A stretch of 59,066 nt of DNA, filler included, from Fonticula-like sp. SCN 57-25 (lineage: Eukaryota), in assembly GCA_001724245.1 (NCBI GenBank). It is 4 parts of 4 records of this genome, joined end to end, with 100 filler letters (N's around TTAATTAATTAA, not from the genome) between each part and the next. Parts side by side here need not be neighbours in the genome. Positions count along the whole stretch, not along the records: positions 45,286 to 59,066 come from MEDX01000170.1; 3 more parts are not named here. One strand, written 5' to 3'. The position numbers and the translations under genes were made by a program. The notes beneath the pieces were generated by a model. It worked only from the letters and a program-made list of their open reading frames with translations, had not been told where the DNA came from and ran no database searches. Numbering within the stretch: the stretch's first letter is position 1; each line of letters opens with the position of its first letter. This document shows, one piece after another, positions 3,255 through 59,066 of this stretch.

Positions 3255-3631
3255 GGTGGCCGAGCTAGAGGGAAAGGTATACGAAATCGGTGCAACCTGT
3301 AAACACCGCGCTTATTTGACAAGCCTGCCAAAAATTTGAATATTCGCGGCGCTTTGGGAAACCAACGCCGTCGAACTCGCAACAAAAAAGGTCGCGCAAA
3401 AAGCGACCAAAGAGACAATTTGTGGATTTGTAAGCAGCCAATGGGCATATGAGAAAATTGCGACATCGCGTGCTCTAAGGGGGGGCTGCGTTTGTCCACC
3501 CTGAATCAGGAAAAGTATCAATCAAAAAAAGGGACCAAACCGGGGGGGTCTCTGAAGGGTGACCGGCTTGGGTGTTTATGCTTACTCTGAAATCTGGTTC
3601 AAAGCCACCTGCCCCGCGCACCGCCATCACC

Positions 3632-19446: not shown

Positions 19447-22252
19447 ATGCGCGCGCCCGACCACTGGGACTTGTACTTTCCAGATGAAGGTACGGGTGGG
19501 AGAGGGGCGTGGGAGTGAGGCGCGAGGCTGAGGCGCGCGTTTGGTAGACTTTATGGAGGAGAGCCCGGAGGGGCAGATGGTGATGCAAATGCTAGAGTAC
19601 TTTGCGGGATACGCGCCGCTCGTGTCAAAGGTGCGCCTTCGCGTGTACGCTCCTCCCGCGCAGTCTCTTACCTCTCAACAGAGCGACCTTGAGAACTATC
19701 AAGCTGCGACCGTCGATTTTGCCGAAGTTGTTCAGCATTGCCCCGTGGAGAACCTTGCGGCCGAGTTGCGCGACCGGCCGGCGGCTGTCCTTTCGTGCAT
19801 GGCGCTGGCTCTCCACGAGGCGCTCACAAGCCAACCGGGGTCCGATGACCCGGGCGTCTTGCGCGTCATGGTGATCAACTACGAACCGCTTACTGTGCTG
19901 CGCGACATAAAGTCAAACCTAGTCGGAAAATTTGTGGCCGTCCATGGAACTGTGGTGCGCGTCAGTAACATGCGGCCGCTCGCCACGGTCGGCGATTTTG
20001 AATGCAATAGATGCGGTACTAGCCAGGTACATCTGATGTTTGTTCATTGCCTTGTACTAAGCCGCGCGTACAGCTGCTGCGCTTTGAAGACGGACGGTAT
20101 GCGGTCCCATCGAGGTGTACGACGTCGTCCTGCAAAAGCAAAGCTTTTACATTCCTGCGCGGCTCGCCAAACACGCAGTCTGTTGATTGGCAGCGAATTA
20201 GGTACATTGATGTGCGCATGTGTTTGCCGATTGCTAACGGTCAGCAGAGTGCAAGAGATCTTGAACGACGACGTGAATGACGCCGGCCGCGTGCCGCGCT
20301 GCATCGAGGTCGAGCTAAGCGCGCACCTTGTCGACCTGTGCCTGCCGGGCGATGTCGTGACGCTCTCTGGAATTGTAAAATTTCTCGGTACGGACGAAAA
20401 TGAAGGGAAAAAGCAAAGCAACGCGCCTACCTACGTGCTCTACATTGACGCCAACGCCGTCACAACAAAGTACGCGGTTGTGCGGTTGTTCTGTTTGCTT
20501 ACCTCGCCCTCAGCAAATCGCGATCCGCGGCGCACACCAAGAACGACTCGTCCGATCTCTTGCAGTTTTCTATCAAGGACATGTATGCTATCCGCGAGAT
20601 CGCCAACGAGCCCGACCTCTTTAAACTGTTCGTCAACTCTATCTGCCCCTCCATCTTCGGGCACGACTTGGTCAAAGGTCCGCCTCCCGCGCGCCCCTCT
20701 GTCTTGTCGCGCTGACTGCTCGTCGCAGCGGGCTTTGTTCTCGCGCTCTTTGGAGGAAAGCGAAAGTACGCGACGCACAAGAGCAACGTCGCTGTTCGCG
20801 GCGACCCGCACGTCCTGGTGGTGGGCGACCCTGGTCTCGGAAAGAGCCAAATGCTTCAGGCTGTGGCTGCCGTCGCGCCGCGCGGCGTGTACGTGTGTGG
20901 GTCCACTGCCACGTCTGCCGGCCTCACTGTGGCCCTGCACCGCGACTCGGCCACGGGCGATTACGCCCTCGAGGCGGGCGCGCTTGTCCTCGCCGACCAG
21001 GGCACGTGCTGCATCGACGAGTTTGACAAACTGCGTCACGAGCACGAGGCCTTGTTGGAAGGTGCGGGCTTGCGCGACACTCTTGTATGTGGCACTCACG
21101 GTCGCGGTAGCCATGGAACAGCAATCGATCAGCGTGGCCAAGGCGGGAATCGTCTGCAGTTTGCCGTCTCGCACCTCTGTGCTGGCCGCGGCGAACCCTG
21201 CGGGCGGCCACTACAAGTACGCTCTTCTTGAGGGCTGTTTTCTGAGCTCACCGCCCGCACAGCAAAGCGAAAACTGTTTCAGAGAACCTCCGGATGGGCG
21301 GCGCACTGCTCTCTCGCTTTGATCTCATTTTCATCATGCTCGACAAGCCCGATCTTGATATGGACCGCTTCCTCTCGGCACATGTCATGGCAGTGCGTCC
21401 GCTCACGCATTACTCTTGCGCCTTCTAATACTCTCTTTCCGCAGCTTCATGCCGGCAGGCGGCCTGCTCCTATGCAGGACGCCGCGCGCGTCACAGAGCG
21501 TGACCCGGGCGGCACGCAGCCCCTGTCACTTGTTCTTTCCGAAGAGGCTGCGCCGTCTCTGGCCGCGCGGCTGCGCGTCAAGAGCGGTGAGCAATTCGAG
21601 CCGATTCCGCCGTCCCTCCTGCGCAAGTACATTGGCTACGCTCGCCAATACGTGGAGCCGAGGTGCGCATACTTCTCTCGTTCCTTCCCGAGCTCAGCCA
21701 TCTCGCAGCATTTCACCCGAGGCAGCGGACCACCTGCAGCGTTTTTACCTGGAGCTCCGCCAGACGCATCGGTCGGCTGACTCGGCGCCGATAACGACCC
21801 GCCAGCTCGAGTCGCTCATGCGCCTTGCTGAAGCCCGCGCACGGCTGGAGCTGCGCGAGAATGTGACGGAAAAGGACGCGCAGGACGCCATCGAGCTCAT
21901 GTGCGCTTGATACTCCCGATGCGTTTTAATGCGGAATTGCTGACCTTTTTGTAGGCGGCACAGCCTGAATGGCACGTTCGAGGACAACGTGGGCAACGTG
22001 GACGTGTCGCGGTCGCAGCACGGCACCGGCATGATTCGCAATCATCTGGCCAAGCGCTTTGTCGGCGAGCTGGAGCGGGTGGCGGAGCAGACGGCACAGA
22101 GCACATTCACGCAGCAGGCCCTTTTTCAAATTGCGCGTGACTTGCACCTGCCGATCCCAAACCTCGCCGAGTTTATTCAGTCGCTCAACTATCAGGGGTA
22201 CCTGCTAAAGCGCGGCAACAATTCCTACAAGCTCATGTCCGCCGGCTTGTAG
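19447..22252 (+). CDS. MCM8: DNA helicase MCM8
   Basis: N-terminal [22 protein letters not shown] zinc finger, [66 protein letters not shown], and the MCM8-type C-terminus [11 protein letters not shown]. Confidence 0.93.
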
Positions 22253-43981: not shown

Positions 43982-44284
43982 CGTCATGTGTTTTATCGAT
44001 ACGTTTTGCGCCTACCTCATGTGTGTTGTGTCATACTGTGTATCTTCCTGTGTACATGCGTCGCCCTTTCTGTTTTTGTTCAATCAATTCGTCCCGTTTG
44101 CCTGGGCCTGTCATTTTTGTCCGCATCGCATGGATGGTCACCACCATCGCCTTAATAGCATTTATAGCAATCACATTCAGTCAAATCATATATTCATGCC
44201 ATTCAGGCCATATCAAATATCAAATAATAAATATTTACAGCGAAATCAGCATCATTTGCAGCACGTGCCGCTCTAAAATATATC

Positions 44285-45185
44285 TCAGAAATGCATCAAA
44301 ATGTCCTCGATGACAACGTCCGTCTCCTCCATATCGACGCCCTCGTCCTCCACGTGGCCAACTTCGACCGCCGCCTCGATGACAAACTGGACTGCGACGA
44401 CGCCCGCGCCGCCCCCGACGCGCACCGTCGCGACGCCGCCCTGCCCCGGTCTTACTTTGCCGACCTCGCGGAAGACGCGACCGTCGACGCTCACCTGCAC
44501 GGCGGCAGCGCGCACGGCACCACGTGGCCGAGCAGGGTGGCCGCTGTGCAGCGTCACGGCGCGGAGCGGTGTCGCGAGCGGCTTGGAAAACACGATGCGA
44601 AAGTAGTCACCGGCACGGCCCGCGCGCGACGACGCAAAGTAAGAGAACGGGTCCGTGTCAATCGCTGTCAATGAAAGAAGTAAGTAAAGTGGAATAATCA
44701 ATGCAATATCAATACGATACAATAAACAATATAGCATTCACTACACATACAACAAAACCCACTACATCGCATGGCCGCGCACCATTTTCGGGCAAGTGCA
44801 ACCCGTCCGACGGCAGCGACGTCACCACACGCGCCTCTGGCTCCCTCAGGGCTGCCCGCCGAGGCATCATTGCCCCATTCGTCTCGCGCACCGCCGGCGC
44901 CACCACTGGCGGCCACATGGCCACAACAAGGCTCGGCTCGACCGTGCGCACCACATCAAGCCCGCGCGCCTGCACCGCAAGCAGCGACGGCGACGAAGCC
45001 AGTCCGTCATCATAATCACTCGCGGCCCTTTTGCACAGTCAGCACAAGGACAATATTATGCGTATAGGCGCACACTGCAATGACGTCGCTGTAGTCGAGC
45101 AGCCACTGGGCGTCGTCGATTGGGCAGCCGATCCCGCCGTCAAAGTCGCACGCCGTCCCGCCCGTCCGCTCCGCCCGCATCGCTG
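44285..45185 (-). CDS. MGAT4 (GnT-IV)-like protein, C-terminal part with lectin-like domain (5' end lost at the gap)
   Basis: EPSLVV...EPEARVVTSL...YFASSRAGRAGDYFRIVFSKP...VTLHSGHPARP parallels the MGAT4 pattern PSLF...NPPAEVSTSL...FW...AGDYI.F.F.KP...FHSGN.EHP. Confidence 0.6.
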
Positions 45186-45285
45186 NNNNNNNNNNNNNNN
45201 NNNNNNNNNNNNNNNNNNNNNNNNNNNNNTTAATTAATTAANNNNNNNNNNNNNNNNNNNNNNNNNNNNNNNNNNNNNNNNNNNN
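45186..45285. other. Assembly linker (N44-TTAATTAATTAA-N44)
   Basis: Same spacer as the other two; MGAT4-like and RPN7 are both truncated here. Confidence 0.95.
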
Positions 45286-46673
45286 CGTACCGAATGCGAA
45301 TCTCCCTTGTGACAAAGACATAGTGCCTGCTCATCCACGGGTCCCTCTTCATGACCTGCTCGACGTGCGCGAGCGCCCCAAACACCTCCCCATACCTGCA
45401 CTCGTAGAGCGCGTTGAGCAGCTCGGCGAGCGCCGCCACGTCCTCGCGCCCCGACGGCCCGGACCCGGCCAGCGCCTCAATCACCTCGGGCGCGTCAATC
45501 ACCTTTGTCTTGAGCGTCACGCGGTCCCGCGACACGAGCGACGTCAGCACGGCGTAGCGGATAAAGGACGACGTCGACAAAAGCTCAGTGCTCGTAAAGG
45601 TCGCGAGCGTGTCGAGGAAGAGCGACGAGGCGGACGCGAACGAGCGCGTGCACACAAGAAAGACGGCCTCGTACACCTTGAGGCGGTTGCGGCGGTCCCA
45701 GTCACCGCCTTCGTCAAGAACCCTAACAAAAAGGACATTAGAAAGGGAAATGGGGCAGGAAAAGGCCAAAAAAATAGAAATCGCATGCGATTTTCATATC
45801 AAGAACACGGGAGACAGCACACAAGACAGTTCCACTACAGGCACATGCGCTCGTGTGCACATGGTTCTTGAAACATTGCATAAAATCCCTGCTGACGTAC
45901 TTGTGGGCCTCGTCGACCTTGAGCTTGATGAGCTTGAGGTCGCCAAACATAAATGCGAGCCTGATGACATCAAAGATCACGTCGAGCCTGGATCCGACAC
46001 CGACGCTCTTTTCATAGGCGACGGCAAAGGCCTCCACGGCGCGCTCCTTGTCGCCGATGCTCGAATAGTGAGCGGCAATGGCGTAAAGGGCGTCGCGGAT
46101 TTCAACCGAGCCGGCGTTCTGCGTGACGTCGGCGAGCTGCGCCTCCAGGGCCTCAAGCTTTGAAACATTGGCTGCAAAGGGGCAGGAACAGAGTTAAAAA
46201 GGGTTCCAGTACGATTCAATGGGAATTCAATAGAAAGAAGACAATATAGAAAAGGATAGTAGCAAGTGAGCGTGTGCTCTCTTTCCACAATGGAGCTCAA
46301 GATGTAATTCAGTATGTTATCGTACCGGCCTTCATTGACGCGAGCAGGGCCTGATCAAGCGGAACGTTGGCATCCGCAGCGAGGAACTCGTAATACGGCG
46401 CCATATCTGCGCGCTATAGTCAGTTTCCGCGCGACATACTCCTCGCCGTCATGCGCACTGTTCTCCTTGATAATTTTCATGATGGCATCGAGAACGGCCG
46501 CCTTGTTGGGCGACACCTCGTCCGACGCCTTGAGCTGGAAACGAAGCTCGACAAGCGCCATATGGAAAAGCTAAGAACACACGCAGTCAGTTAAAACATC
46601 AGAGATGCAGAATAGACGCAACGGGTGCGGATGCCGGCTTGGTAGCCTCCGGGGCCGCTGCTTCAATGCCCAT
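45286..46673 (-). CDS. PSMD6: 26S proteasome regulatory subunit Rpn7 (3' end lost at the gap)
   Basis: Motifs NMAPYY, NAGSVEIRDALYAIAAHYSSIGDKE, GGDWDRRNRLKVYE, FLDTLATFTSTEL and FVTREIRIR. Confidence 0.95.
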
Positions 46674-46731
46674 GTTCAATGGAGATCGACCCTGCGCGCC
46701 GTTTGCGTTTGCCGAATGTGCGTCAAAGAAA

Positions 46732-46760
46732 CTGATGATGTCATCAGTGACGTCACTGAT
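46732..46760. promoter_or_regulatory. Overlapping CRE-type palindromes in the RPN7 / C2H2 bidirectional promoter
   Basis: CTGATGATGTCATCAG (46732-46747) overlaps the perfect 18-bp palindrome ATCAGTGACGTCACTGAT (46743-46760), which contains TGACGTCA. Confidence 0.55.
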
Positions 46761-46813
46761 CTGGATATATTTTCGATCCCGATTGAAGGTACATTGTGTG
46801 TCGCGCGCGAAAC

Positions 46814-47944
46814 ATGGCGAATGTGCGGGCGGTCAATCCAGGGCGCTTCTGTGTGTACTGCCAGAAAGAGTTCAAGAACCAAATTGCTGCCGAGCAGCAC
46901 ATGGTGACAAAGCATGGCAGGATTGAACCGCGTGTAATTCAGTCGGCAGATGATGCCGTGGTGACCGATACAACCATCACCCACTGGTACGCAGAGTTGG
47001 CGGGAAAAACGCGGGCACTGATGCCGCACGTGCAGCGCGCTTTGCAACCAGTCATTTCAGTCAAACCACGCTCTTCGTCAGCATTTTAATAGCAAGCATC
47101 CCGCTTTAGAGCCGGAGAACCACGCGGTCCGCGTACGCATCGGCATTACTTTCTGACCATCAACCTCACGAGTGTTTAGAAATACGCGAGCGCAACGAGC
47201 ATCGCCTCCACGCCGGCCACCTTTGACTCTTTCGCTGACGACTCTATCGCCGTTGCCGTACCGCTGCCGCCCGCTGGCTTTAGCCACTCTGATCCCGGCG
47301 CGCTCAAGCAGAGCTATACCGACAGCGGGCGGTACACGCACGTCGCCAGCTTTGATCCTTCGGCCATGGACGACGACGACCTCTTTGCGGGGAGAACGCC
47401 GCCGCGTGTCATCCAAAACGACGAGGAATCCTTCCCGACGCTCGGCGCCGCGGCTGCCCCAAAGCCAAAGGCCGCTGCGCCGGCACCGTCCTGGCGGCCC
47501 GCTGCTCGCCCGACGCCACAACCCATGCAGCCTGTGCAGCCCGTGCAGCCTGTGCAAGCTCCAGTACAAGCGTCGGTGCCAACGTATATGCAAACCCCCG
47601 TGCAGCATATGCGGCCAGTCGCGGAGCGCCCGCAGCGGCCGCTCGCCTCGCAGGCGCCTCCCCAGAACCCAGGGTGGACAACCGCCCGCCCCACTCAGCC
47701 CCCGACTATGGGGCAGACTGCGCGTCCCGTCCGTCCGTCGGCGCCGCCGCAGCAACTGCAGCAGCCGCCGCAACCGCGCCCCCGCCCTTTCCGCCTGCAG
47801 GACGAGGTGCTGATGCCGACGGCGGGCGGCGATTGGGCGCGCGTGCGCGTGCTTGGTGTGTCGGCGCAGGGCCGGCTGATGGTGGAGGACGCGCAGGGCG
47901 TGCGGTCGGTCGTCGAGGGCGACGCTGTGCGGCACGCGGCCTAG
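46814..47944 (+). CDS. Protein with two C2H2 fingers, an FPxL motif, a P/Q-rich linker and a C-terminal SH3-like barrel
   Basis: Spliced product has FCVYCQKEFKNQIAAEQHMVTKH, HCALCNQSFQSNHALRQHFNSKH, NDEESFPTLG, (PVQ)n and FRLQDEVLMPTAGGDWARVRVLGVSAQGRLMVEDAQGVRSVVEGDAVRH*. Two introns keep the frame. Confidence 0.7.
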
Positions 47945-48193
47945 CTGTATGATTCGAAAAGGCGTAGACTTTTTGTTGACGTAATCAAGCACATTTTGGG
48001 TTGGTGTGGCGAGTGCGGCACGGGTTTCGTCAAAGTGATATATATTTATAATAATTATGAGTTTAAATGAAAAAGAGGCAGAGGAAGAACAGAAACACAA
48101 GGCGATGAATAGATATTGAATTGCGTGATGCATGATCTTTTGCTTCCATTCTCGTTCGTCCTTTCCATGTCACAATTGGCGCGAGGAAAGTTG

Positions 48194-48763
48194 TCAGAGA
48201 AGCGTGCATCCCCCCTTCTTGCCATCCTTTGACTTTCCCTTCTTCCCCTTCTTCCCCCCCTGCTTGGCCTCCCGAATTTGCCTCACAACAGAGTAGAAGG
48301 CGCGCTCGACGTTGACGCACGTCTTTGCCGAAGCCTCTGTAAAGTCACAATTGAGCGTCTTGGCCATCGTCTCGCCCTCCTGCGTCTTGACCTGGCGCTC
48401 ATTCACCATGTCGCACTTGTTGCCCACCAGCACGAGCGGGATGTCCTCAGTGTCCTTGACGCGCGCGATCTGATCCCGGAAGCGGTTGACGCGCTCAAAC
48501 GTCGACCGCGTCGTGATGCTGTAGACAAGAACAAAGCCCTCGCCGTCGCGGATCCACTGATCACGGAGCGCAGTGTACTCCTCCTGACCGGCTGTATCAA
48601 GAACCTCGAGCACGCAGGGCTCATCGTCAATCACAACCTGCTTGCGATACGAATCCTCAATAGTCGGATCATACGTCTCAACAAAATGATTCAGGCAAAG
48701 CTGGATGGTAAGCGCCGTCTTGCCGACACCACCATCACCAAGAACTACAATACGATACAACAT
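48194..48763 (-). CDS. Ras GTPase of the fungal Ras2/RasB type
   Basis: [34 protein letters not shown] and [22 protein letters not shown] are the filamentous-fungal Ras2/RasB signature; polybasic tail plus CAAX (CTLL). Intronless CDS. Confidence 0.95.
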
Positions 48764-49492
48764 GATCTGCAGATCGCGTGGGATGATTTGGTAAGCAACG
48801 GTGGATCAGCGAGCAAGCGAGGAGAACGCACGTGCACCGCTCAAAAATGTGGATATTAAGACAAGCACAACAACGGCTAAAAAGGCGTTATTGGAGTAGA
48901 AGAGACCGAGTTTCACTGATGACGTCGGCTAGAACGCGCAGCAAAACAAGGATGGCCGTTTGCGATAACCTTGTTGAAAAGGAGAAGCAACTCGCCGTCG
49001 GATCGCGGGTCAAAAAAAGCACGTCAAAATTAACGCAACGATATGCTCGGTACTGCCTCGGACGGAATCAAAGGCTACTGCGCACGTCGGCGTGATCGGC
49101 AGGTGCACTAAGATGCTTTGTCTTGAGGACGTGCACGCTTCGCTAGGCAAGGCGCACGCACAAATTCGCCCGAAAAGTAGAAAAAAAGGAAAACGAACAG
49201 GGGTGGAATCTTCCCTGGATGGCATTCTTCTGGTGAATCAGGCGGAATCAGAGGGAATCAGAAGAGTAAGGTGGGATTGCTCTTCCCTACAACCGAACGT
49301 ACGAGTGGGCGGTCACTGTACAAGTTGAAACATTGCCGCACAACACAGTGGCTCGTATAGTTTGAAACAATTATATATGCGTGCTAGCGTAAAGACTAGC
49401 AGTATCATAGCTTCTATAAGAGCCCTCTTCCTCCTATGATTACTACTATATCACACATCACGTTACTTGAGGGGCAGTATCAGGTTTCGGTG

Positions 49493-50028
49493 ATGCCCCG
49501 CAAGCGCGTGGCTCAGAATGTGCTTGATGCCGTGCCAGAGCCCAAGGACCATGAAAAGGTAGTTCAGATGGAGCGTGCTGTTGGGAAGCACCTCTACGAA
49601 GTGCGCTTCCCCAACGGCGAGTTGACACTTTGCCGCATGCCGCCAAAGTTTCGCAACATTGTGTACATCAAGCGGGGTACGTGGCCCTCGTGCGCGGGCA
49701 TTGGCGCCTAACATGCTTTGTAGGCGACCATTTGATCATTGAAGTGAATTCTACGAGTACGAAAGTGGAAGGCGATATTACGTACATTCTCTATGACGAT
49801 CAGAAGCGGGAGCTTGCGCGCAAGGGCCTGTGGCCGGCCGAGTTTGCGCTGACGACGGCGGCCGCGTCGGCATCGGCGCCGACGCAGGCGCGCGACGCCG
49901 ACGACAGCGACAACGAGGACGACTTGATGGAGAATCCCAATAGGCCATACTTTTCCGACTCGGACGATGATGATGACGAGGAGGAGGGGGAGGAGGACGA
50001 GGCAGATGGCGTGCAGGCCTCGGAATGA
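49493..50028 (+). CDS. EIF1AD: eIF1A-domain protein
   Basis: GKHLYEV, LCRMPPKFRNIVYIKRGDHLII, KVEGDI, GLWPAEF, ENPNR and an acidic tail. One intron. Confidence 0.9.
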
Positions 50029-50314
50029 AGTGTATATAGAGTACTGCTTTATGTGACGAGATACGTATATTGTGATAAATATAGTTATACAATTCAAAGG
50101 TGACGATAAAATACACGAATATTTGCTGAAAATAGTGATATAAGGGCCGCTCAAATTGGGTACTCTTCCTTGACAATTGACTTGGCTGTATCGCAAATGT
50201 CAGTAAACTCGACTAGCAAGAACATAGCCGAAACAATAGCAAATATTGGGCAGAAATACAATAACACGAACCCTATTTCCTTTCCTTTCCCTCTTCCCTT
50301 GTCTATTCCTTTCC

Positions 50315-51033
50315 CTATTCGAGGTGATACGCACGTGCAAGTGGTCGTATGGAAGGCGGCCTGCTCCACACACGCAGCTGCAACCAACCCAATAAGTAAC
50401 GCATTTCCCTCATTGGGCGCACGCACCGCTTCGCTTCTCATTTGCGTTGTAATTTGTTCGATCGTCGCCTGCTGCTGCGCGATAAGCGCCCCGATCGATC
50501 TCAGGCGCGCCTCCTGCTCTGCCACGCGATCCGCCAGCCCGTCGTCCACGTAGCCGCTCTGCGGCGGGAACGACGCAAAAAGCGCCGCCTTTGCGCGCGA
50601 CTGGCGAAGGAAATCGCATGCGCGCTGCAGCACCTCCACCTTATTGAGCGGGGGAGTGGCATTGGCCGCGCTCTGGCTGCCGCGGGATTCGGAAGGAGCA
50701 ACAATCATGCGGAGCTCGCTGATGCACTGGTTCAGATCGGAGCGGTACTGCTTCTCCATCGCGCTCTGGCCGCGCGACTTTTCGTCGCGGGCGAGGAAAG
50801 GAAGGCGAAGGGACCGCCCGCCACCGCGCTTGCCTCCTGGGTCAAAGGTAAGACGCACGCCAACCAAAGCAAATGTTCGAACCATCTTCATCGAGATCGG
50901 CGTCAAAGGAAAGATCGGACGGGTCGACAGAGGGAGAGTCAACAGGAGAGCCGACCGATAGAGGCGACCAGCCGGGGCTCTCCTGCCACGTCGGTGAAAC
51001 CGCGCGCGACGACGGCTTGGCCCGGCCCGACAT
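50315..51033 (-). CDS. SREBP-type bHLH transcription factor, apparently soluble
   Basis: QSAMEKQYRSDLNQCISELR...LNKVEVLQRACDFLR, with the Tyr in the basic region typical of SREBP-family bHLHs, followed by a coiled coil. Two inferred introns give MSGRAK... to ...RAYHLE*. Confidence 0.75.
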
Positions 51034-51060
51034 TGGAATGAAACAAACAACGCCCAATTG

Positions 51061-51130
51061 GTCGGTCACGGTCGGCTATAGTCGTTTATAGTCGGGTACG
51101 GTAGGTTATGGTCGGTTATGGTCGTTCACC
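51061..51130. repeat. Degenerate 10-bp tandem array (7 x GTCGGTTAYG) in a bidirectional promoter
   Basis: Units: gtcggtcacg gtcggctata gtcgtttata gtcgggtacg gtaggttatg gtcggttatg gtcgttcacc. Confidence 0.85.
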
Positions 51131-51158
51131 GCTGACGGCTTGTCAGCTGTGTGGGGCA

Positions 51159-52161
51159 ATGTCACGGCTCGCGTTGCTGCTGCTGCTCGCTTCCTCTAGT
51201 GCAGCCGTACACTTGACAGAAGAGCAAGTGAGCGAGTGGCAACTGCGGCGTTCAACGCGTCTAACGAGCAACCCCTCTATAAACTATGTTTTATATGATC
51301 CGTATGCGACAGCACCGTCCGGGCTGTGCACCTGGGCGCGCGAGCACCTCGTCGATGACAGCTATCTCCTGTTGACCTTTGCGACTCATGAATACACCGA
51401 CATTGTCCTTAACTGGGCGGCGGCGCTGTCGCGCTTTGGCGTGCGCGGCGCCGTCTTTGCGCTCGACTCATTGTCGGCAACACAACTCGCTTCTCGCGGG
51501 ATCGACGTGTACGACGGCAGTGATCCGGCATGGACCGAGACCGACTATGCGGATCTGTGGGCGGCGCGAATGGACGCCCTTCTTGATCTGCTAGAGTGCG
51601 GTGTGCGCGTTGCAATGGTGGACGCAGACGCTGTCTTTACCAGTGCACCGGAATGGCCGCAGACGACATCGATCGACATCTGGCTATCTCAGGGCACATT
51701 CCCGCAGGACGTATATTCAAAATGGGGTACGCCATGGGTGAAGAACTGTGTAGGGTCCTTTTTGATCTTATTTTGACGTTTACCGTTTGCGTGCAGGCAC
51801 CGCAGGATGCATGGGCTTTGCCCTGTTCGAGTCGAATGCGCGCACCGTGTCGCTCGTCCGCGCCGTCCTCGCCGACGTCCAATCCTCGGGCGACGACCAA
51901 GTATCGACCAACCGCATTCTTCTATCACGCGGCCTTGACCCTGCGCCCCCAGAGGAGCCCGCGGCCCTCGTCGACCGGTACGGCTGCCTCGCCGACGACG
52001 GCCTGTGCGTCGCCTTTCTCCCCACGGCGATCATCCCGCGCGACTGCGACACCCACGTGGTCAAGGGCGTGCAGCCAATGGCGATGCACTGCCTGACGAG
52101 GAAGAGCGCGCGGAGCAAGGAGAGCGACATGCGGAAGCGCGGCCTCTGGTTCATAGATTAA
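51159..52161 (+). CDS. Nucleotide-diphospho-sugar transferase (GT77/Nucleotid_trans-like)
   Basis: Signal peptide or anchor; LLTFATHEYTDIVLNW, VFALD, LLECGVRVAMVDADAVF (DxD), CMGF, GDDQVSTN, AMHC...KE..MRKRGLWF. One intron. Confidence 0.8.
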
Positions 52162-52481
52162 TGCCTTTAGGGTGATTACGTGTACATAGTTTTGTTGATA
52201 ATGGTATGGTCTTTTGGACTGCTTTTGATTATGTCTTTCGTTTCTCAATGAAACTATTGCGAAAACCTTGATTTCATTAGTACACAACGCAGAAACATGA
52301 GATGGAAGTCAAACAAAGAGAAAGGCTAAAAGCACAACAAAACTCGCTCACAAGAAGAAAGTATTGGGAAAGGAAAGAAAACCAAAGAGAGGGCGACTCG
52401 AAGACTGCAACGAAAGGAACCGGATGCATAGACAGACCAGTAGGGAGGCCGGCTAACCACGAGGCCATCGTCAATGATTGA

Positions 52482-53647
52482 CTATAGGTGATGGTGGTGG
52501 TGGACGTCGTCGGCGTGGTGCGCGGGCTGGTGGTGCTGGTGATGCACGTCCTTGTCGGGCTCTTCGGGCATCATTGACGGGTCATACATTGCAGAAGGCA
52601 GACTCGCTCGCCGCGCGAAATTCTGCAGCAAGTTGACCTCTGTAATCTATGTCACGAAAAACGTCAGAAAAGAAAAGGTCGAAAAAGGGTTTCGTACCCG
52701 CTGCGCGTGGTCGCGCATTGTCTCGACCGTCGAGTTCCGCCGCCGGTAAAAGTCCATCTTGGCGGCTTCAAAGTCATTGTCACTGAAAAGGCGCGCCAGT
52801 CAGCAACCACTGTACAAAAAAGTATAATGTCAACGTACGCTCGCGATTTCCGCTTGCGGAAATTGGCAGCCGAATTGCTCGGTTCGGGCCCCGATTCCGC
52901 CGCCATCGCCGCCGCGGCAACAACAGCAAGCCCCTATTAAATATAGTCAGCAAATGCGCCTTACATACACACGTTAAAGTGACGTACCACGCGGGGCTCG
53001 GCTGCGGCGAGCTTGTCAGTGTTGGCCAGGTACTGGTGCTGCTGCATCATTGGCGCGGGCGCAGGCATCCTCGCGTTCTTGGAAATGGCGCCGAGCTTCT
53101 TCTCGAGCACCTCGAGGCGGCCCTGCAGGTTCAAATTCTCCTGCCGCAGCGAGTCCAGCTCTGTGCAAGGCAAAAGGGTCAGTACAACTTAAGCTGGGTA
53201 ATTCGGGCGCACCGTCGGCGCTAGCGGCTCCGACGACAGCGGTGTACGGCCGCGCGGGCTTGGCAGGAACGCCGGCGCGCTCGCGCAGCCCGACGAGCTC
53301 GGTTTCGTAGACGGTCGTCTTGTTTTCGAGCGACTCGATGTATTCCTGCAATAATTAAGCGATTAGCCAATGATGGCGACAAAAAAGGCTAATGTACCTT
53401 GGCCTTTGTGAGGATCAGGACCGTCGAAGGACGCTCCTGGCGCAGCTGCGGTACAACGTCCTTTAGGTCATTCAGCCGATCCTTCTGGTGCTGGCGGCGC
53501 TTGCGCTCAAGCTCGTTGTGATTCGCACGCTTCTTTCTGCAAGGCCATCAACGTCAGCCACAAGAGTGAAATAGGCGTGAAAACGGACCCTCCGCGGGGC
53601 GTCGACCCGGGCGAGTCGGGCTCCTCGTCAGAAAAGTCGTCCGCCAT
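52482..53647 (-). CDS. Myc/Max/Mxd-type bHLH-ZIP transcription factor (7 exons)
   Basis: Exon 53396-53537, missed by the ORF track, encodes KKRANHNELERKRRQHQKDRLNDLKDVVPQLRQERPSTVLILTKAK|EYIESLE, with the H-E-R basic pattern of CACGTG binders. It is followed by coiled coils, RKRK, RRNS, RRAS and a His-rich end. Confidence 0.85.
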
Positions 53648-54250
53648 GTGTGTTCCTACTATAGCAAAGCGCGCGATGCGTGCGCGCTTGAGCGGTTCCC
53701 CCTTCGCGGCTGAAAAAAGTCAACGAGACCAAGACAGTATCAATATATGTGCGAAGCCACTCGATTCGCTCCTCGCCGTGGCCTTCACCGAGAACAAATG
53801 CTCGTTATCCCTCTCACAATTGCTCTGGCCCGCCGCCACGCAGCAGTCCTGTTTTTCCTGCAAGAATCGCGCCGCCTGTGACGCGTCCCAATGAAAGGGT
53901 CGTCCGCCCACCCCGGAATTCGGTGTCAGGATAAATCGCGATGCTGGATCCGGATCCTCGATCCATCTTCCATCGCGATCCACGCGAAGCGAACCGTTCG
54001 CACAAACAAATGCTCCCATTGGCTGCCCGTGCGCGACACCCGCGTAATGATTGGTCGGTTATTTTTTGGGCGAAATTTGGTCGGAAACACGTTTTTAACG
54101 TTCGAGACCGTGGGACGGCTTAGAGCGCGCCTCATCTAACGAGAGCTAAGCGTAGCGCGCGATCAGGTTGCAGGGCAGTCTGCAACACGCGCGCAAGCAG
54201 TCGCACCGTGATCTTTGAGTGTGGCATCACACATCACGCGAGCGCACTCG

Positions 54251-54260
54251 ACCACGTGGT
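54251..54260. promoter_or_regulatory. Palindromic E-box ACCACGTGGT in the bHLH / CKI shared promoter
   Basis: Perfect 10-bp palindrome containing CCACGTGG, the Myc/Max-preferred site. Confidence 0.55.
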
Positions 54261-54704
54261 TACCGGGGCCGTTTTTGCTGACGTGTTAAGGTCGGGTTGT
54301 AACCGTCACCCACGTTGACCGTTAACCGCCGATCCCTGGTTAGTCAGCTTCAGTCGGTTTGCCATCGAGCGCGCCGCCATCCTTCCGGTGTTTGTACTGC
54401 TGACGCGGAGGAGTACCTGCGGCACCTAACGTGTGTTGCGTTCTCTGCTTTCCGTGCATTTTGTATCGGAGGCAGACATCGGTCGGCTTAACCGTCACCC
54501 CCACGGTACCCCCAACCGGTGCGGTCGTTGTGGCGCATCAGGGGACTTCCTTTTGGAGTCCTTTTTATTGCGCCGAGCGTAGCACTATTAGAGAGAGGAG
54601 CTTTTAAGTAGCTTTCTTTCCTGGCCGTTTACTCGGCTTTTCAACCTTTTGCACCTCCGCCTTTGTGGGCATCTGATTGCGCCACTTTTTTTTGCCACGT
54701 TGGA

Positions 54705-55298
54705 ATGGCGCCAACACCGACAAGAACGCTTCGGGCGCGCCGCCCGAGCGCCCCGTCAGTCCCGCGGCCGTCGACACTGCAGCCTGTTCGCTCTGACGAG
54801 CATGCTAATGAGCGGGAGAACCATTCAACGCGGTCGGTCAATCGGCCTCGGTCGTCGCCGCAGCGTGTTCCCCAGGGCATCACGCTGGCCGACATGCCGC
54901 TTCCGGTGAGCCATCCCGCGCATATCTTGCACAAGGCCGCTGCGGCCGGTGCGTCGCCAGTTTACCAGACGAACCCCGCTCTTCTTGCCCCACCACCGCA
55001 GTCGACGTCGCCATCGACATCGCTGTCTTCGACCTTTTTTGTTGTTCGCCGCAGCCCGCGGATCTCTGCGCGGCAGCAGGACCGCCGCGCGCTTGAGCAG
55101 GAGCAGGAGCAGCAGATGCACCGGGAGACGCCGACGCTCAGCGTGCACGACCTCAAGCGGGATCTCGACAACCTCGTGAGCGACCGGTCGCAGACGTGGA
55201 GTTTTGACTTTGCCGCGGGGAGGCCACTGACCGAGAGCAACGGGAATTATATTTGGACGCCCGTGAATGTCAACAAGGCTGTGTCTGCGAGGAGGTAA
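54705..55298 (+). CDS. Cip/Kip/KRP-type cyclin-dependent kinase inhibitor (C-terminal CDI domain)
   Basis: HDLKRDLDNLVSDRSQTWSFDFAAGRPLTESNGNYIWTPV aligns with p27 EELTRDLEK...SQRKWNFDFQNHKPLEGKYEWQEV. Disordered S/P-rich N-terminus; intronless. Confidence 0.8.
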   Translation: MAPTPTRTLRARRPSAPSVPRPSTLQPVRSDEHANERENHSTRSVNRPRSSPQRVPQGITLADMPLPVSHPAHILHKAAAAGASPVYQTNPALLAPPPQSTSPSTSLSSTFFVVRRSPRISARQQDRRALEQEQEQQMHRETPTLSVHDLKRDLDNLVSDRSQTWSFDFAAGRPLTESNGNYIWTPVNVNKAVSARR

Positions 55299-55667
55299 GG
55301 GCAAGCATGTAGCTTGCTCGTTGTACACTGATTGTTATGGCTTGGCGTGCGCGTGTTTGCGTGCGGGATCATTGCAAAGTATTATTTTTGCTCCGCTGGC
55401 TGCGGATTGTATGTATTGTGTTGTGCATTGTGTTTCTGTGTGCGCGCCCATTGTTGCTCTGGCGACTGCGCTGTGCTGCTCGCCGGTTGGCTGCGTGATC
55501 CGAAACGGTTATTTATCGCGCGGTTGCCGGCGGGCGACGCTGCGGGCTGTGCTCGCGGTGTTCCTCAGACAAATATAGTTTTACTTTATTCGACCTTTAT
55601 GTGCCCTGCCCACTGTGGCGCCCAATCAGAGAATAAATATAGTATAGTCTTATTACGTCTCTAGCCG

Positions 55668-57084
55668 CTATTCGTACAGAGCGATGAGCGCCATTGCGCC
55701 GACGCCCGCGCACATTGCCAGCGTCTCTGCGACCGTCTGCGCAAACGACGCGCGCGTGAGCAGCGAAGGGATGATGCTGACCGTCGCGACGTAAATAAAG
55801 CCGCCGGCCGTGAACGGGACGACCCAGCTGACGCCGTCGCCCTCCGCGCCGGCGGCCGACACGGCCAGCCCAAAGAGGCACCCTAGACAAGGTGAGCGAT
55901 CATGTGCAAAGTACAAAGCGGTTTGCACCTGCAAAGGCGCCGACGGCGGTGAAGAGTTGCGCGATGAGCGCGGCGCGGCGCGAGTAGCCTGACTGAATGA
56001 GAACGGCAAAGTCGCCGATCTCGTGCGGGATCTCGTGGAAAAAGACGGCGATGGTCGTCGAGATGCCGACCTAGGGGGGGTGTAAGGGGAAGAAGGGGGA
56101 AAGGAGGAAGCGCACGGCGGGGCTCGACATGAACGAGGCAGCGATGGCCATGCCGTCGGTAAAGTTGTGCATAAAGTCGGCCACGAGGTTAAGGAGGCTG
56201 CCGATGCGGAGCGAAAGCATCTATTTTAAAGGTGAGGAAGAGGCAAAGGGGAAAGTTCTGCGTACATGCTCGTTGTCGGCGGTGGAAGGAGCGTCGGGGG
56301 TCGGCGGGCTGGCCGGCTTGGCAGCGTTACCGCCGCGGTGGCGGAGACCCGACGCGTCGGTAGCGTGGCTGTGATCGTGGCTGTGACCGTGGCCATCATC
56401 GTGACTGTGACCGTGACCCTCATCGTGGCTGTGGCCGTGACCATCATCATAGCCGTGGTCACCGTGAGAGTGAGAGTGGCCAGAGCCTCCAACGACTGAG
56501 CGCAGGAGCTTTTCCGTGAGGAAAAAGGTCAGCATGCCGCCGAGGACGAGCAGTCCGATGCCGAGATGCGCCGAGTGGTCGTGGCTGACCGATTGATCGT
56601 GCGAGTGCGAGTGGTCGTGGCCGCCTTCGAATGCGTGCGGCAAAAGGTGAAGAAAGACGTCGCCGAGGAGACCGCCAACGGCAAAGGCGACGAGAGTGCG
56701 CAGCACATGCGACGCGATCGGCGACCGGCCGGCCGAAGAGTTTGAGGGAACCAGAAAGAGAAACAGAATAGGAACAAGGCTGATAAACGCAGTCGCCCAA
56801 AGCGCGGACGACGACGGTGTCGTCATAAGAGGCGCCAGCCATGTAATTGGCGAATAGGCGCTCACGTACGAGGCGTACTCTTGCGCAAGCCCGTGGTGAT
56901 GGTGGTGGTGATCGTGAGCATGCCCGTGGGCATGGCCATGCTTGCACGACGACCCATGCGAGTGACCGTGCACTGCATCATGGTCATGATCATGGTCATG
57001 CGGCGGGGGCGGAGAGTACTCTGCTCCGACAACCGCCGCGGTCGCGAGCACTGCCAGCAGTGCGACAACGACACTTCGCCTCAT
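55668..57084 (-). CDS. SLC39A7: ZIP7/KE4-type zinc transporter
   Basis: Signal peptide, His-rich ectodomain, [49 protein letters not shown] and [14 protein letters not shown]. Confidence 0.92.
56365..56479 (-). repeat. Coding 24-bp repeat (GHGHSHD[D/E]) in the ZIP7 His-rich loop
   Basis: Translation reads [39 protein letters not shown]. Confidence 0.8.
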
Positions 57085-57252
57085 CCCTGCTGCCGCGTCT
57101 TAACACACTGCAATGCAGCAATGTTTGCACTTGGATCCGGATCCAGTACGATCGCGATCCGTTTGATTTTGTAACGGTTGATTGCGATTCAAGTTTGTCA
57201 GTTTTTTTCCTTCGTGTGGCGGCGATCGACGGCCGCAGGGGAATTGCACAGC

Positions 57253-58812
57253 ATGTCGAACCCATTTATCATGCGCGTAAGCGAGATTGTCGCGTGGCTT
57301 GAGGATCTTAGCGTTCCTCTCACGGCGGACAACATCAACCGCCCGACATCGGAGCACATTTCTCGCGTCTACGAGGTCCTCACGGATCTGATCCTTGGGA
57401 CGGAGCGCGATGAGTATGAGCCGAATGAGACGATTCTCGAGAGTCTGGAGCGCCCTCAGCTTCTCGTTACTGCGGTCAAGGACATGAGCTACTTTAGGAC
57501 AATGTACGCATGGTTTCCGCTTTTTTCCTGATGGCTGACGGCATGGGAATGTGCAGGTGCCAGCTCATGCAGGCCGCGTGCATCGAGGGCTTTTCGATGA
57601 ACGATCTTATGAACCCGACCCCGCAGCGTGTCATTCGCGTTCTCAGCGCTCTTCACAATTACTATGCGTTCCGCAAGATGCGCCTTTCAGAGTTTCAAAA
57701 GATTAAGGACAATTGCGAGATCCTCCTCGACCAAAAGGCAGAGCAGGAGAACAAGAATGCCGAGCTTGCCGAGCGCATCGACGAAGCAAAGTACGCACTT
57801 GGGCGAGTGTGAAAGTGTTGCTTACATGAATGCGCGTAGGGAGCAGCGCGCCGCCGAGGAGCCGCGCTTCCAGAAGCTGGCCGAGCAGCGCCAGGAGCGC
57901 GAGGAGGAGATTAAGAAGCTCAACGAGCGGCAGGAGGCCATGACCGCCGAGTTCCACCAGTTGAAAAAGATGACGTCAGAGCTCACTGAGCGTGTTGTAC
58001 GTGTTTCAATTTATATTGGAAGCGAGCATTGTGTTGGCAAGTGTCGTTAAAGTGGCGTAAAAAACTTGCGCTGTGGATCATTTATGACCGTATTCGTGTT
58101 GTTCTGCTGTGCTTTTCTGTGTTTTGGCCTTTTCTGACGTGTTCTTTAGAACAAGAGCAAGACGACGGCCGACCAGACTCGCCTCGAGACGAAGCGCCTT
58201 TCCTCGCAGATTGTCAAGGACCCCGACCACCTCAAGCAGTCCCTTCGCGACCTGACGTCGTCGCTCGCCGTCGAGCGCGAGAACGTGACCAACCTTGAGA
58301 AGAAGACGCGCGAGCTGCAGGCCAAGCTTGAGCTTCTCGCGCAGGTTGACATTGACGTTGGCAAGGCCGTGACGCTGATGCAGGAGGTTGAGGTTGAGAT
58401 GAAGCGCGTCGGCGACGCTCAGCGCGAGCTCCAGCGCGTGTCCGAGACTGTGTCTGCCAAGCAGGCCGAGATTGCCGAGCTCCAGGGCCGCCACGCTCAG
58501 CTGAAGCGCGGTGCTCAGGCTGCGCAGGAGAAGGCGATGCGCCAGGACAAGCAGCAGGCGATGCGGCGGGAGGCGAGCGACGCGCGGATGGCGCAGCTCC
58601 GCAAGGAGGTTGAGGGCGTCAACTGCCAGCGCGAGATGCTCGTCAAGCGCATTGAGGAGCAGGAGGCGGTCATCAAGGAGCTGCAGGAGGAGAATGCCAG
58701 GCTCGTCGCAAAGCACGAGGTGCCGCTCAGGATGCTCAGGGCCGACGTGGTGCAGCTCGCCGACGCCGTAAAGTCGTACCACAAGACGCTCGCGCAGTCG
58801 ATCCGCGTCTAG
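57253..58812 (+). CDS. NUF2: Kinetochore Ndc80-complex subunit Nuf2
   Basis: MSNPFIMRVSEIVAWL...LTADNINRPT, LMQAACIEGFSMNDLMNPTPQRVIRVLSALHNYYAFR, SQIVKDPDHLK and a long coiled coil. Three introns. Confidence 0.9.
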
Positions 58813-59066
58813 ATTGATTTTGATTTTGTGGTTTAATGTGCTTTGCGGGTGGCCACATGGCTCGTGCGTGTGTGGCCGTTTAGTGTATTTGGATTTTTGC
58901 TCTTTTTTCGCTGATGCTGCTGTTTTGTTTTGGTGTTTGGGCCATAGTATTGTCACGCTGCCCCTCCAGAAAATGTAAGTTTGTGATTTGAAAATTTGCC
59001 CCCGACCAATCAGAGTACAGATACGAATAGTGACAGCGAACGATGACAGCAAACGCGCGGGAAGTC

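What the first reader, a model, noticed from the sequence alone, without database searches (positions are those of the whole stretch)
52482..55298. Head-to-head Max/Mxd-like bHLH-ZIP and CDK inhibitor sharing an E-box promoter: candidate growth-arrest switch
Seen in sequence: on one contig, a CACGTG-class bHLH-ZIP and a CDI-domain protein diverge from a ~1.05-kb region containing ACCACGTGGT, Myb-like, CCAAT and CGGTYA motifs. Established knowledge: in animals the Myc/Max/Mxd network controls p21/p27 to couple growth and cell cycle; yeasts lack both families. Inference: a physically linked, possibly autoregulated quiescence or encystment module. I am not aware of this linkage being described.
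Basis: partly seen in the sequence, partly recalled or inferred. Interest (0 to 1): 0.72.

Follow-up and report, generated by a model that had tools for sequence, protein, structure and literature searches.

The report
Max-like gene beside CDK-inhibitor gene
Two real genes of an uncultured fungus-related protist, a Max-like DNA-binding regulator and a small cell-cycle brake protein, sit head to head around a perfect binding site for Max-type regulators, but relatives do not keep the two genes together, so a joint growth-arrest switch remains a guess.

Summary
A 7-exon gene on the minus strand (52482-53647) encodes a 282-aa bHLH-ZIP. An intronless gene on the plus strand (54705-55298) encodes a 197-aa disordered protein with a C-terminal CDI (Kip/KRP-type CDK inhibitor) match. 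They diverge from a 1,057-bp spacer holding GACCACGTGGTT (54250-54261), the full published Myc/Max 12-mer consensus.

The bHLH is Max-like, not Mxd-like. It belongs to a family seen in Fonticula alba and early-diverging fungi.

The CDI call is probable. It rests on a marginal Pfam pass, on CDI clusters as the nearest ESM Atlas neighbours, and on sub-threshold p27/p21 alignments. No homologue was found.

Strain variants support both gene models: 16 of 16 coding differences are synonymous.

The linkage is not conserved. None of 20 related metagenome loci holds a CDI-like sequence, and the upstream neighbours differ in all five lineages examined.

A CACGTG box within 1 kb upstream of the bHLH recurs in 7 of 11 lineages (about 2 expected). 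It ranks first of all 64 palindromic hexamers. This points to E-box feedback on the bHLH gene itself.

No RNA data exist. Whether the box also drives the inhibitor gene is untested.

Verdict: two ordinary family members in a lineage-specific adjacency; moderate interest.

The parts
52482..53647 (-). Max-like bHLH-ZIP gene, 282 aa. Exons: 53647-53589, 53536-53398, 53345-53213, 53160-52988, 52933-52839, 52782-52698, 52646-52482 (stop codon included).
   Evidence: The model is in frame, with six GT..AG introns of 51-56 nt. Of the strain variants listed in the gene, 10 of 10 exonic ones are synonymous third-position changes and 8 lie in introns.
53398..53536 (-). Exon 2: basic region, helix 1, loop and the start of helix 2
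   Evidence: Pfam HLH E 2.1e-11. Best solved relative is Max at E 9.5e-10; Mad 3.4e-5, Myc 1.9e-4, USF 4.3e-3.
53589..53647 (-). Exon 1: short acidic N-terminus with Ser/Asp/Glu runs
   Evidence: Similar acidic openings beginning with Met-Ser-Asp stand upstream of the bHLH exon in L003, L005 and L020.
52482..52782 (-). Exons 6 and 7 with two family-conserved C-terminal motifs (..RRNST.. and ..RRASLPS..) and a His-rich tail
   Evidence: tblastx shows conservation in L002-L004, L012, L014, L016 and L019. Translations are shown side by side. Reading them as kinase or 14-3-3 sites is my inference from recalled consensus motifs.
53648..54704 (.). Head-to-head spacer of 1,057 bp between the two start codons
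   Evidence: No Rfam family, tRNA or Pfam-bearing ORF.
54250..54261 (.). Palindromic E-box GACCACGTGGTT, which equals the published Myc/Max consensus RACCACGTGGTY
   Evidence: One match in the window and 0 in 100 shuffles. The consensus is quoted in a passage of PMC11739200. The site lies 604 nt from the bHLH ATG and 445 nt from the CDI ATG.
54300..54311 (+). First copy of the exact 12-nt direct repeat TAACCGTCACCC; part of the CGGTYA/TRACCG cluster
   Evidence: repeat; no other exact copy in the window. CGGTYA 5 observed against 1.09 expected.
54489..54500 (+). Second copy of TAACCGTCACCC
54705..55298 (+). Intronless gene for a 197-aa Pro/Ser/Arg-rich protein with a C-terminal CDI domain
   Evidence: Pfam CDI 25.5 bits (cut-off 25), E 1.4e-5. 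The top 3 ESM Atlas clusters are all PF02234, scores 0.84, 0.80, 0.79. Six of 6 listed strain variants in the CDS are synonymous.
55149..55265 (+). CDI match (residues 149-187) with the W-x-F-D-F ... P-L ... Y-x-W core
   Evidence: Sub-threshold alignments to p27 and p21 chains cover this stretch, E 0.6-1.8. A loose CDI pattern hits only here across six frames of the window and the 20 loci.
55086..55094 (+). Candidate cyclin-docking R-x-L (residues 128-130), 36 residues before the Trp of the core
   Evidence: One search lists the motif. Its role is inference.

Best explanation
These are two independent, real genes in a lineage-specific head-to-head arrangement.

Gene 1 encodes a Max-like bHLH-ZIP factor of a family shared by Fonticula and early-diverging fungi. 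Its basic region carries the His-Glu-Arg set that reads CACGTG, so it most likely binds that box as a dimer. It probably feeds back on its own promoter through the perfect Myc/Max-type 12-mer 604 nt upstream of its start codon. Such feedback would be a family trait, because an upstream CACGTG recurs in most relatives whatever the neighbouring gene is. Two conserved C-terminal Arg-Arg-x-Ser motifs suggest control by a basophilic kinase, perhaps with 14-3-3 binding.

Gene 2 encodes a small disordered Kip/KRP-type CDK inhibitor. It has a candidate cyclin-docking RxL, a linker, and the CDK-binding W-F-D-F/Y-W core at the very C-terminus. Seven Ser/Thr-Pro sites lie across the protein, five of them in the N-terminal two thirds.

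Because the box sits in the shared spacer it could also act on the inhibitor gene, but nothing here shows that.

Shown: the gene models, the domain matches, purifying selection, the site, the lack of conserved linkage, and the recurrent upstream box. Inferred: DNA binding, feedback, kinase control and CDK inhibition.
For: - Gene models and selection. Sixteen of 16 listed coding variants are synonymous; 4 further variant rows were not shown by the tool.
- Max-likeness. The family profile scores Max 75 bits (E 1.1e-19), Myc 43.5 bits, USF 30, Mad 22.
- Site b10 is Arg, as in Max, Myc and Mga. Mxd and Mnt have Lys there, and Mlx and Mondo have Gln, according to a passage of PMC3177325.
- Family range. 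Named hits are Fonticula alba (72% identity), Syncephalis, Spizellomyces, Phlyctochytrium, Thoreauomyces, Coemansia, Martensiomyces and Kickxella.
- The site equals the published Myc/Max 12-mer.
- Upstream CACGTG occurs in 7 of 11 locus groups against 1.65-2.0 expected, Poisson-binomial P 2-4e-5.
- CACGTG ranks first of 64 palindromic hexamers. The 23 other palindromes of the same composition reach 0-4 lineages. The control 1 kb downstream gives 0 of 11.
- In L003, L005 and L020 the box lies upstream of the putative ATG. In L003 it sits in a divergent spacer shared with a ferric reductase gene.
- CDI membership.
- Among 316 six-frame ORFs scanned against Pfam, I saw no clearly spurious hit as strong as E 1e-5.
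- No conserved linkage.
Against: - The upstream-box test was designed after I saw the data. It mixes two paralogue groups, and 4 of 11 lineages lack the box.
- The bases flanking the box differ between lineages.
- Another CACGTG reader could use the site.
- The CDI score passes the cut-off by only 0.5 bit.
- A full phmmer scan of 1.84 billion representatives found only the protein itself, plus four repeat-protein artefacts.
- Atlas scores under 0.9 are leads only.
- The related loci share no flanking gene at all with the window. Synteny has decayed generally, so the lost linkage is weak evidence against function in this one lineage.
Confidence: 0.6

Rival explanations
1. The first reader's module: the shared spacer is one bidirectional promoter. 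The Max-like factor binds the 12-mer and controls both itself and the CDK inhibitor, coupling nutrient state to cell-cycle arrest, quiescence or encystment.
For: The layout is head to head, with the box roughly central: 604 and 445 nt from the two start codons. The site equals the Myc/Max consensus. Conserved Arg-Arg-x-Ser motifs on the factor fit signalling input (the reading is inference). That the animal Myc/Max/Mxd network acts on p21 and p27 is established knowledge, recalled here.
Against: The linkage is absent in all related loci. In group A the same kind of box sits in a divergent spacer with a ferric reductase gene instead, so the box follows the bHLH gene and not the neighbour. No expression data exist.
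Confidence: 0.17
2. The E-box is a general promoter element of this organism, read by some other bHLH (a USF-, TFE- or Cbf1-like factor, or the SREBP-like neighbour), and has nothing specific to do with either gene's function.
For: CCACGTGG occurs 8 times in the window against 1.09 +/- 0.95 expected. Three of these lie in putative non-coding DNA against 0.26 expected. The two other sites stand before a G-patch gene and near an RRM gene.
Against: Plain CACGTG is not enriched in non-coding DNA of the window: 8 observed, 5.8 expected. The recurrence upstream of this bHLH family is specific among all palindromic hexamers. The coding/non-coding mask used is crude.
Confidence: 0.15
3. The 197-aa protein is not a CDK inhibitor; the CDI match is a chance resemblance in a short aromatic motif of a disordered protein.
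For: The score is 25.5 against a cut-off of 25. There are no homologues. A similar short motif in bacterial repeat proteins gave spurious hits. Profile positions 1-13, the cyclin-binding part, are not matched.
Against: The hmmscan E-value of 1.4e-5 is measured against the whole of Pfam. The nearest Atlas clusters are all CDI. Five of the 7 PDB sequences listed at E up to 10 are p27 or p21, aligned on the same residues. The C-terminal position, the disorder and the Ser/Thr-Pro sites fit the family (Atlas model pLDDT 0.53).
Confidence: 0.12

Closest known systems
Animal Max (bHLH-ZIP; PDB 1R05, 1AN2, 1HLO, 1NKP chain B)
   Same: It is the best solved relative by a wide margin. The His, Glu and Arg that contact the box align between the two proteins. 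Site b10 is Arg. Both have a short acidic N-terminus directly before the basic region. The helix after helix 2 aligns over 71 residues for the family profile.
   Different: This protein is 282 aa, with a Pro-rich break after a short zipper, a second coiled-coil stretch, two conserved C-terminal Arg-Arg-x-Ser motifs and a His-rich tail. The family lies in Holomycota, whereas a passage of PMC7003098 places the origin of the Myc:Max network in the choanozoan stem. Orthology was not tested by a tree. No Myc- or Mxd-like partner is known here.
Fonticula alba H696_00762 and 'hypothetical' bHLH proteins of chytrids, Zoopagomycota and Kickxellomycotina (P0014, P0003, P0004, P0015-P0023)
   Same: Same family: 59-72% identity over the 46-aa exon. 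The motif around RRR-x-S recurs in P0014.
   Different: Lengths range from 199 to 774 aa. None has a described function in the names the sources give. Their gene neighbourhoods could not be read here.
Cip/Kip inhibitors (p27, p21) and plant KRP/ICK proteins (Pfam PF02234)
   Same: The CDK-binding core aligns with p27 and p21. The protein is small and disordered, with Ser/Thr-Pro sites. A domain at the extreme C-terminus, with the chain ending soon after it, is as I recall for plant KRPs.
   Different: The profile score is marginal and only positions 14-49 of 49 are matched. There is no detectable homologue. The part of p27 that enters the kinase's ATP pocket (recalled) has no room here, because only about 10 residues follow the core.
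Myc/Max/Mxd control of p21 and p27 in animals
   Same: The same two protein families are involved, and a consensus Myc/Max site lies near the inhibitor gene.
   Different: In animals the genes are not neighbours, and control runs through heterodimers and cofactors (recalled). Here only adjacency is shown, and it is not conserved.

Membership tests
bHLH superfamily (PF00010) | Profile match to basic-helix-loop-helix | tested here: met
   E 2.1e-11, 43.9 bits against a cut-off of 20.7, on exon 2 alone.
Max family of bHLH-ZIP | His, Glu and Arg of the basic region (b5, b9, b13) that read CACGTG | tested here: met
   These residues align with the same residues of Max in the printed alignment. They are invariant in 12 of 12 family exons.
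Max family of bHLH-ZIP | Site b10 is Arg (Max, Myc, Mga), not Lys (Mxd, Mnt) or Gln (Mlx, Mondo) | tested here: met
   The protein has Arg there. The rule comes from a passage of PMC3177325.
Max family of bHLH-ZIP | Nearest characterised relative is Max rather than another group-B bHLH | tested here: met
   Single sequence: Max 9.5e-10, Mad 3.4e-5. Family profile: Max 1.1e-19, Myc 4.3e-10, USF 4.8e-6, Mad 1.5e-3. Only solved structures were compared.
Max family of bHLH-ZIP | Orthology in a tree with animal and choanoflagellate Max, Mlx, Myc and Mxd | not tested
   No reference set of named sequences could be obtained.
Max family of bHLH-ZIP | Leucine zipper continuous with helix 2, and dimer partners | tested here: inconclusive
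   The family profile aligns with Max through the start of the zipper. In the window protein only about three heptads precede a Pro-rich break. Partners cannot be sought because no whole genome is held.
Mxd/Mnt family | Lys at b10 and closest similarity to Mad/Mxd | tested here: not met
   Arg stands at b10. Mad ranks far below Max. An N-terminal Sin3-binding motif was not searched for.
CDI / Cip-Kip-KRP (PF02234) | Profile match at or above Pfam's gathering score | tested here: met
   25.5 bits against 25, E 1.4e-5, profile positions 14-49 of 49. The pass is marginal.
CDI / Cip-Kip-KRP (PF02234) | CDK-binding core W-x-F-D-F ... P-L ... Y-x-W | tested here: met
   Present at residues 165-186. 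It aligns with p27 and p21 chains at E 0.6-1.8.
CDI / Cip-Kip-KRP (PF02234) | Cyclin-docking RxL N-terminal to the core | tested here: inconclusive
   R-A-L at residues 128-130 is a candidate. Profile positions 1-13 are unmatched.
CDI / Cip-Kip-KRP (PF02234) | Binds and inhibits CDK-cyclin | not testable with these tools
   No CDK or cyclin of this organism is in the window and no genome is held.
Conserved divergent gene pair (functional module) | Adjacency kept in related genomes | tested here: not met
   None of 20 related loci has a CDI-like sequence by tblastn or pattern. None of 185 upstream ORFs in 5 lineages has a Pfam CDI hit at E up to 0.01.

The most novel reading that the evidence does not exclude
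Opisthokonts outside animals keep an old Max-type factor that sits on its own E-box and is switched by a basophilic kinase with 14-3-3 binding. In this nucleariid-like lineage its promoter has been joined to a Kip/KRP-type CDK inhibitor. One nutrient-sensitive factor would then set both its own level and a cell-cycle brake, giving a minimal single-locus version of the animal Myc/Max-p27 axis.
Probability: 0.12. Interest if true: 0.65.

Novelty: new member of a known kind. Interest (0 to 1): 0.4.

Why it matters
If the Holomycota family is a true Max orthologue, the Max branch of the network predates the animal-fungal split. A passage of PMC7003098 instead places its origin in the choanozoan stem.

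A CDI-domain inhibitor in a fungus-related protist would show that the Kip/KRP type persisted on the fungal side of the opisthokonts before fungi came to rely on inhibitors such as Sic1, which a passage of PMC4862756 describes as sharing no sequence identity with p27.

The recurrent upstream E-box offers a simple, testable feedback loop in organisms where transcription control is almost unstudied.

The gene pair itself is most likely a local accident of gene order.

Tried and rejected
- Whole-genome search: no genome is held for this window.
- Homologues of the CDI protein. The word-indexed search found none. The exhaustive phmmer scan found only the protein's own 60-aa fragment, plus four repeat-protein artefacts.
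- PDB search with the full 197 aa gave only a chance hit to mS26.
- Synteny by tblastx of window 44001-59066 against the 20 loci: only the bHLH gene matches. A short apparent upstream match in L019 and L020 turned out to be an acidic exon plus intron, not homology.
- Expression: no RNA holder was listed among 20 runs. All four runs laid were DNA contigs with no joints, so introns and transcript ends could not be checked.
- The 12-mer is unchanged in the strain variants. At 1-2% divergence this carries no information.
- Mxd-like reading: rejected.
- The second HLH gene (50151-51065) as a Max partner: rejected, because it looks SREBP-like.
- Papers. Young et al. 2011 and Sebe-Pedros et al. 2011 are not held, so what they say about Max outside Holozoa was not seen. 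Searches found no paper describing this Holomycota family, a CDI protein in Holomycota, or the linkage. This covers the held library only.
- Complex and structure prediction were not run. The bHLH domain is split by an intron, and no CDK or cyclin sequence of the organism was available.
- Earlier notes of the scan: nothing near this place or resembling these sequences.
Full report
WHAT IS THERE

The window is eukaryotic DNA of about 58% G+C with short introns.

The bHLH gene lies on the minus strand. I built a 7-exon model: 53647-53589, 53536-53398, 53345-53213, 53160-52988, 52933-52839, 52782-52698 and 52646-52482. It is in frame, has six GT..AG introns of 51-56 nt, and gives a 282-aa protein.

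The second gene lies on the plus strand at 54705-55298. It is a single open frame of 197 aa.

The two start codons face away from each other across 1,057 bp.

ARE THE GENES REAL?

No RNA run was available. Near-identical strains of the organism occur in other DNA runs, and four were laid on the region. The tool listed 40 differing places and withheld 4 more.
- Eighteen fall in the bHLH gene. Ten are exonic, and all ten are synonymous third-position changes. Eight are intronic.
- Six fall in the 197-aa frame, and all six are synonymous.
- The 329 bases upstream of the CDI start codon carry 10 differences and one 2-base insertion. The 594-base frame carries 4 in the same contig.

Both frames are therefore under purifying selection, and my exon borders are supported.

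THE bHLH PROTEIN

Exon 2 alone matches Pfam HLH at E 2.1e-11.

Against all solved structures the best relative is Max at E 9.5e-10. Mad scores 3.4e-5, Myc 1.9e-4 and USF 4.3e-3.

A profile of 15 family members widens the gap. Max scores 1.1e-19 (75 bits, 71 aligned residues reaching into the zipper), Myc 4.3e-10, USF 4.8e-6 and Mad 1.5e-3.

The His, Glu and Arg that read CACGTG are present, and they are invariant in 12 of 12 family exons. Site b10 is Arg. A passage of PMC3177325 says that this residue marks Max, Myc and Mga, against Lys in Mxd and Mnt and Gln in Mlx and Mondo. So the protein is Max-like, not Mxd-like.

Named relatives are Fonticula alba H696_00762 (72% identity over the exon) and hypothetical proteins of Syncephalis, Spizellomyces, Phlyctochytrium, Thoreauomyces, Coemansia, Martensiomyces and Kickxella. 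This fits the earlier, unchecked note that the genome is a fungus-related amoeboid protist.

The family also shares three further features:
- an acidic first exon;
- two C-terminal motifs, one around RRNST and one around RRASLPS;
- in L012 and L013, two paralogues in tandem.

I read the two motifs as basophilic-kinase sites, the second also as a 14-3-3-type site. That reading rests on recalled consensus motifs and is inference.

THE 197-aa PROTEIN

Evidence for CDI membership:
- Pfam CDI scores 25.5 bits against a gathering score of 25, E 1.4e-5, over residues 149-187 and profile positions 14-49 of 49.
- The three nearest ESM Atlas clusters are all CDI clusters, scoring 0.84, 0.80 and 0.79, which the tool rates as leads only. 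The Atlas's own model is disordered, with pLDDT 0.53.
- With the last 59 residues alone, 5 of the 7 PDB sequences listed at E up to 10 are p27 or p21. They align on the W-F-D-F, P-L and Y-x-W residues at E 0.6-1.8.
- A loose pattern for this core hits once in six frames of the window plus 97,961 bases of related loci, at this gene.
- The protein has 7 Ser/Thr-Pro sites, 2 of which are full CDK consensus sites. It has an R-A-L 36 residues before the core Trp.

Evidence against:
- The exhaustive search of 1.84 billion representatives found only the protein's own fragment and four repeat-protein artefacts.
- The word-indexed search found nothing.

I put membership at about 0.85.

THE SPACER

ACCACGTGGT is at 54251-54260, as reported. 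The 12-mer GACCACGTGGTT equals the Myc/Max consensus RACCACGTGGTY quoted in PMC11739200 (passage). It occurs once in the window and in none of 100 shuffles.

The bare core is at chance level: 27 in the window against 22.4 expected.

The 8-mer CCACGTGG is over-represented in the window, 8 against 1.09. Three of those sites lie in roughly masked non-coding DNA against 0.26 expected. The other five lie in probable coding sequence, where codon usage may explain them.

CCAAT and strict Myb sites are at chance. CGGTYA is enriched, 5 against 1.09, and includes an exact 12-nt repeat, TAACCGTCACCC, present twice.

Nothing else is encoded in the spacer.

IS THE LINKAGE CONSERVED?

One scan of metagenome contigs with a family alignment gave 20 loci at 62-78% identity in the exon. 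They form 11 groups at 90% DNA identity.

tblastn with the 197-aa protein and the loose CDI pattern found nothing in any of the 20 loci.

I scanned against Pfam at E up to 0.01 all 185 ORFs of at least 55 aa within up to 4 kb upstream of the bHLH exon, in the five groups with at least 3.3 kb of upstream DNA. None was CDI. The neighbours were:
- a divergent ferric reductase (L003);
- PARP (L006);
- ankyrin and a synthetase-like ORF (L007);
- mitochondrial L36 and the second bHLH (L012);
- a divergent ankyrin gene (L015).

No flanking gene of the window recurs in any locus. Gene order has therefore decayed entirely at this distance. The pair is not held together, but the test is weak for this particular lineage.

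A RESULT IN FAVOUR OF FEEDBACK

CACGTG lies within 1 kb upstream of the bHLH exon in 7 of 11 locus groups, against 1.65-2.0 expected from composition (P 2-4e-5).

I then counted L012 and L013 as one lineage and added the window. The count is again 7 of 11, and CACGTG ranks first of all 64 palindromic hexamers. The 23 other palindromes of the same base composition reach 0-4 lineages. The matched downstream control gives 0 of 11.

Where a start codon can be placed (L003, L005, L020), the box lies 58-442 nt upstream of it.

Two caveats apply. I designed the test, and the bases flanking the box vary between lineages.

The box thus travels with the bHLH gene whatever its neighbour. That fits self-regulation, or control by a sister bHLH. 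It argues that in the window the box belongs first to the bHLH promoter.

VERDICT

The proposed joint switch is unsupported, and the one available comparative test contradicts it.

What remains of interest:
- a Max-like family across Holomycota with a recurrent upstream E-box and conserved phospho-type motifs;
- a divergent Kip/KRP-type inhibitor in a fungus-related protist.

I found no paper on either, or on the linkage, in the held library. Two key papers on premetazoan Myc/Max and transcription factors were not held.

Noticed in passing
window 50151-51065 (-): A second HLH gene lies 1.4 kb beyond the 3' end of the Max-like gene, with a sugar-transferase-like gene between them. Pfam HLH E 9.2e-9. 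Its best solved relative is SREBP-1a (E 0.0017), including the Tyr in the basic region. A hydrophobic stretch near the end of the frame could be a membrane anchor.
   Followed up: partly
window 25823, 33540, 39249, 40272, 44350, 44520, 52053, 54252: CCACGTGG occurs 8 times against 1.09 expected. Three sites lie in likely non-coding DNA: near an RRM gene, 87 nt before the G-patch frame, and in this spacer. It may be a general promoter word of this organism.
   Followed up: partly
window 54300-54311 and 54489-54500; also 54056, 54316, 54323: An exact 12-nt direct repeat, TAACCGTCACCC, lies within a cluster of CGGTYA/TRACCG words (5 against 1.09 expected), on the CDI side of the E-box. These are broad Myb-core-like words.
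   Followed up: partly
window 52482-52782 (-); L003, L012, L014, L016, L019; P0014: Two C-terminal motifs with Arg-Arg-x-Ser are conserved across the bHLH family. A His-rich tail occurs in the window protein, and a His run occurs in the Fonticula protein.
   Followed up: partly
L012 1426-1557 and 4159-4296; L013: Two paralogues of the Max-like family stand in tandem, about 2.7 kb apart, in one uncultured lineage. They are possible dimer partners.
   Followed up: no
window 3563-4738 (+) and 55668-57099 (-): Two ZIP-type metal transporter genes are present. The second is only inferred: its frames were not scanned against Pfam. It has long His-rich loops and ends 370 nt from the CDI stop codon, tail to tail.
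   Followed up: no
window 2256-3311 (-), about 19532-22249 (+), 57498-58809 (+): Pfam matches to GLTSCR1, MCM8 (with its winged-helix domain) and Nuf2.
   Followed up: no
window 52647-53588: All six introns of the bHLH gene measure 51-56 nt, a very narrow size range.
   Followed up: no
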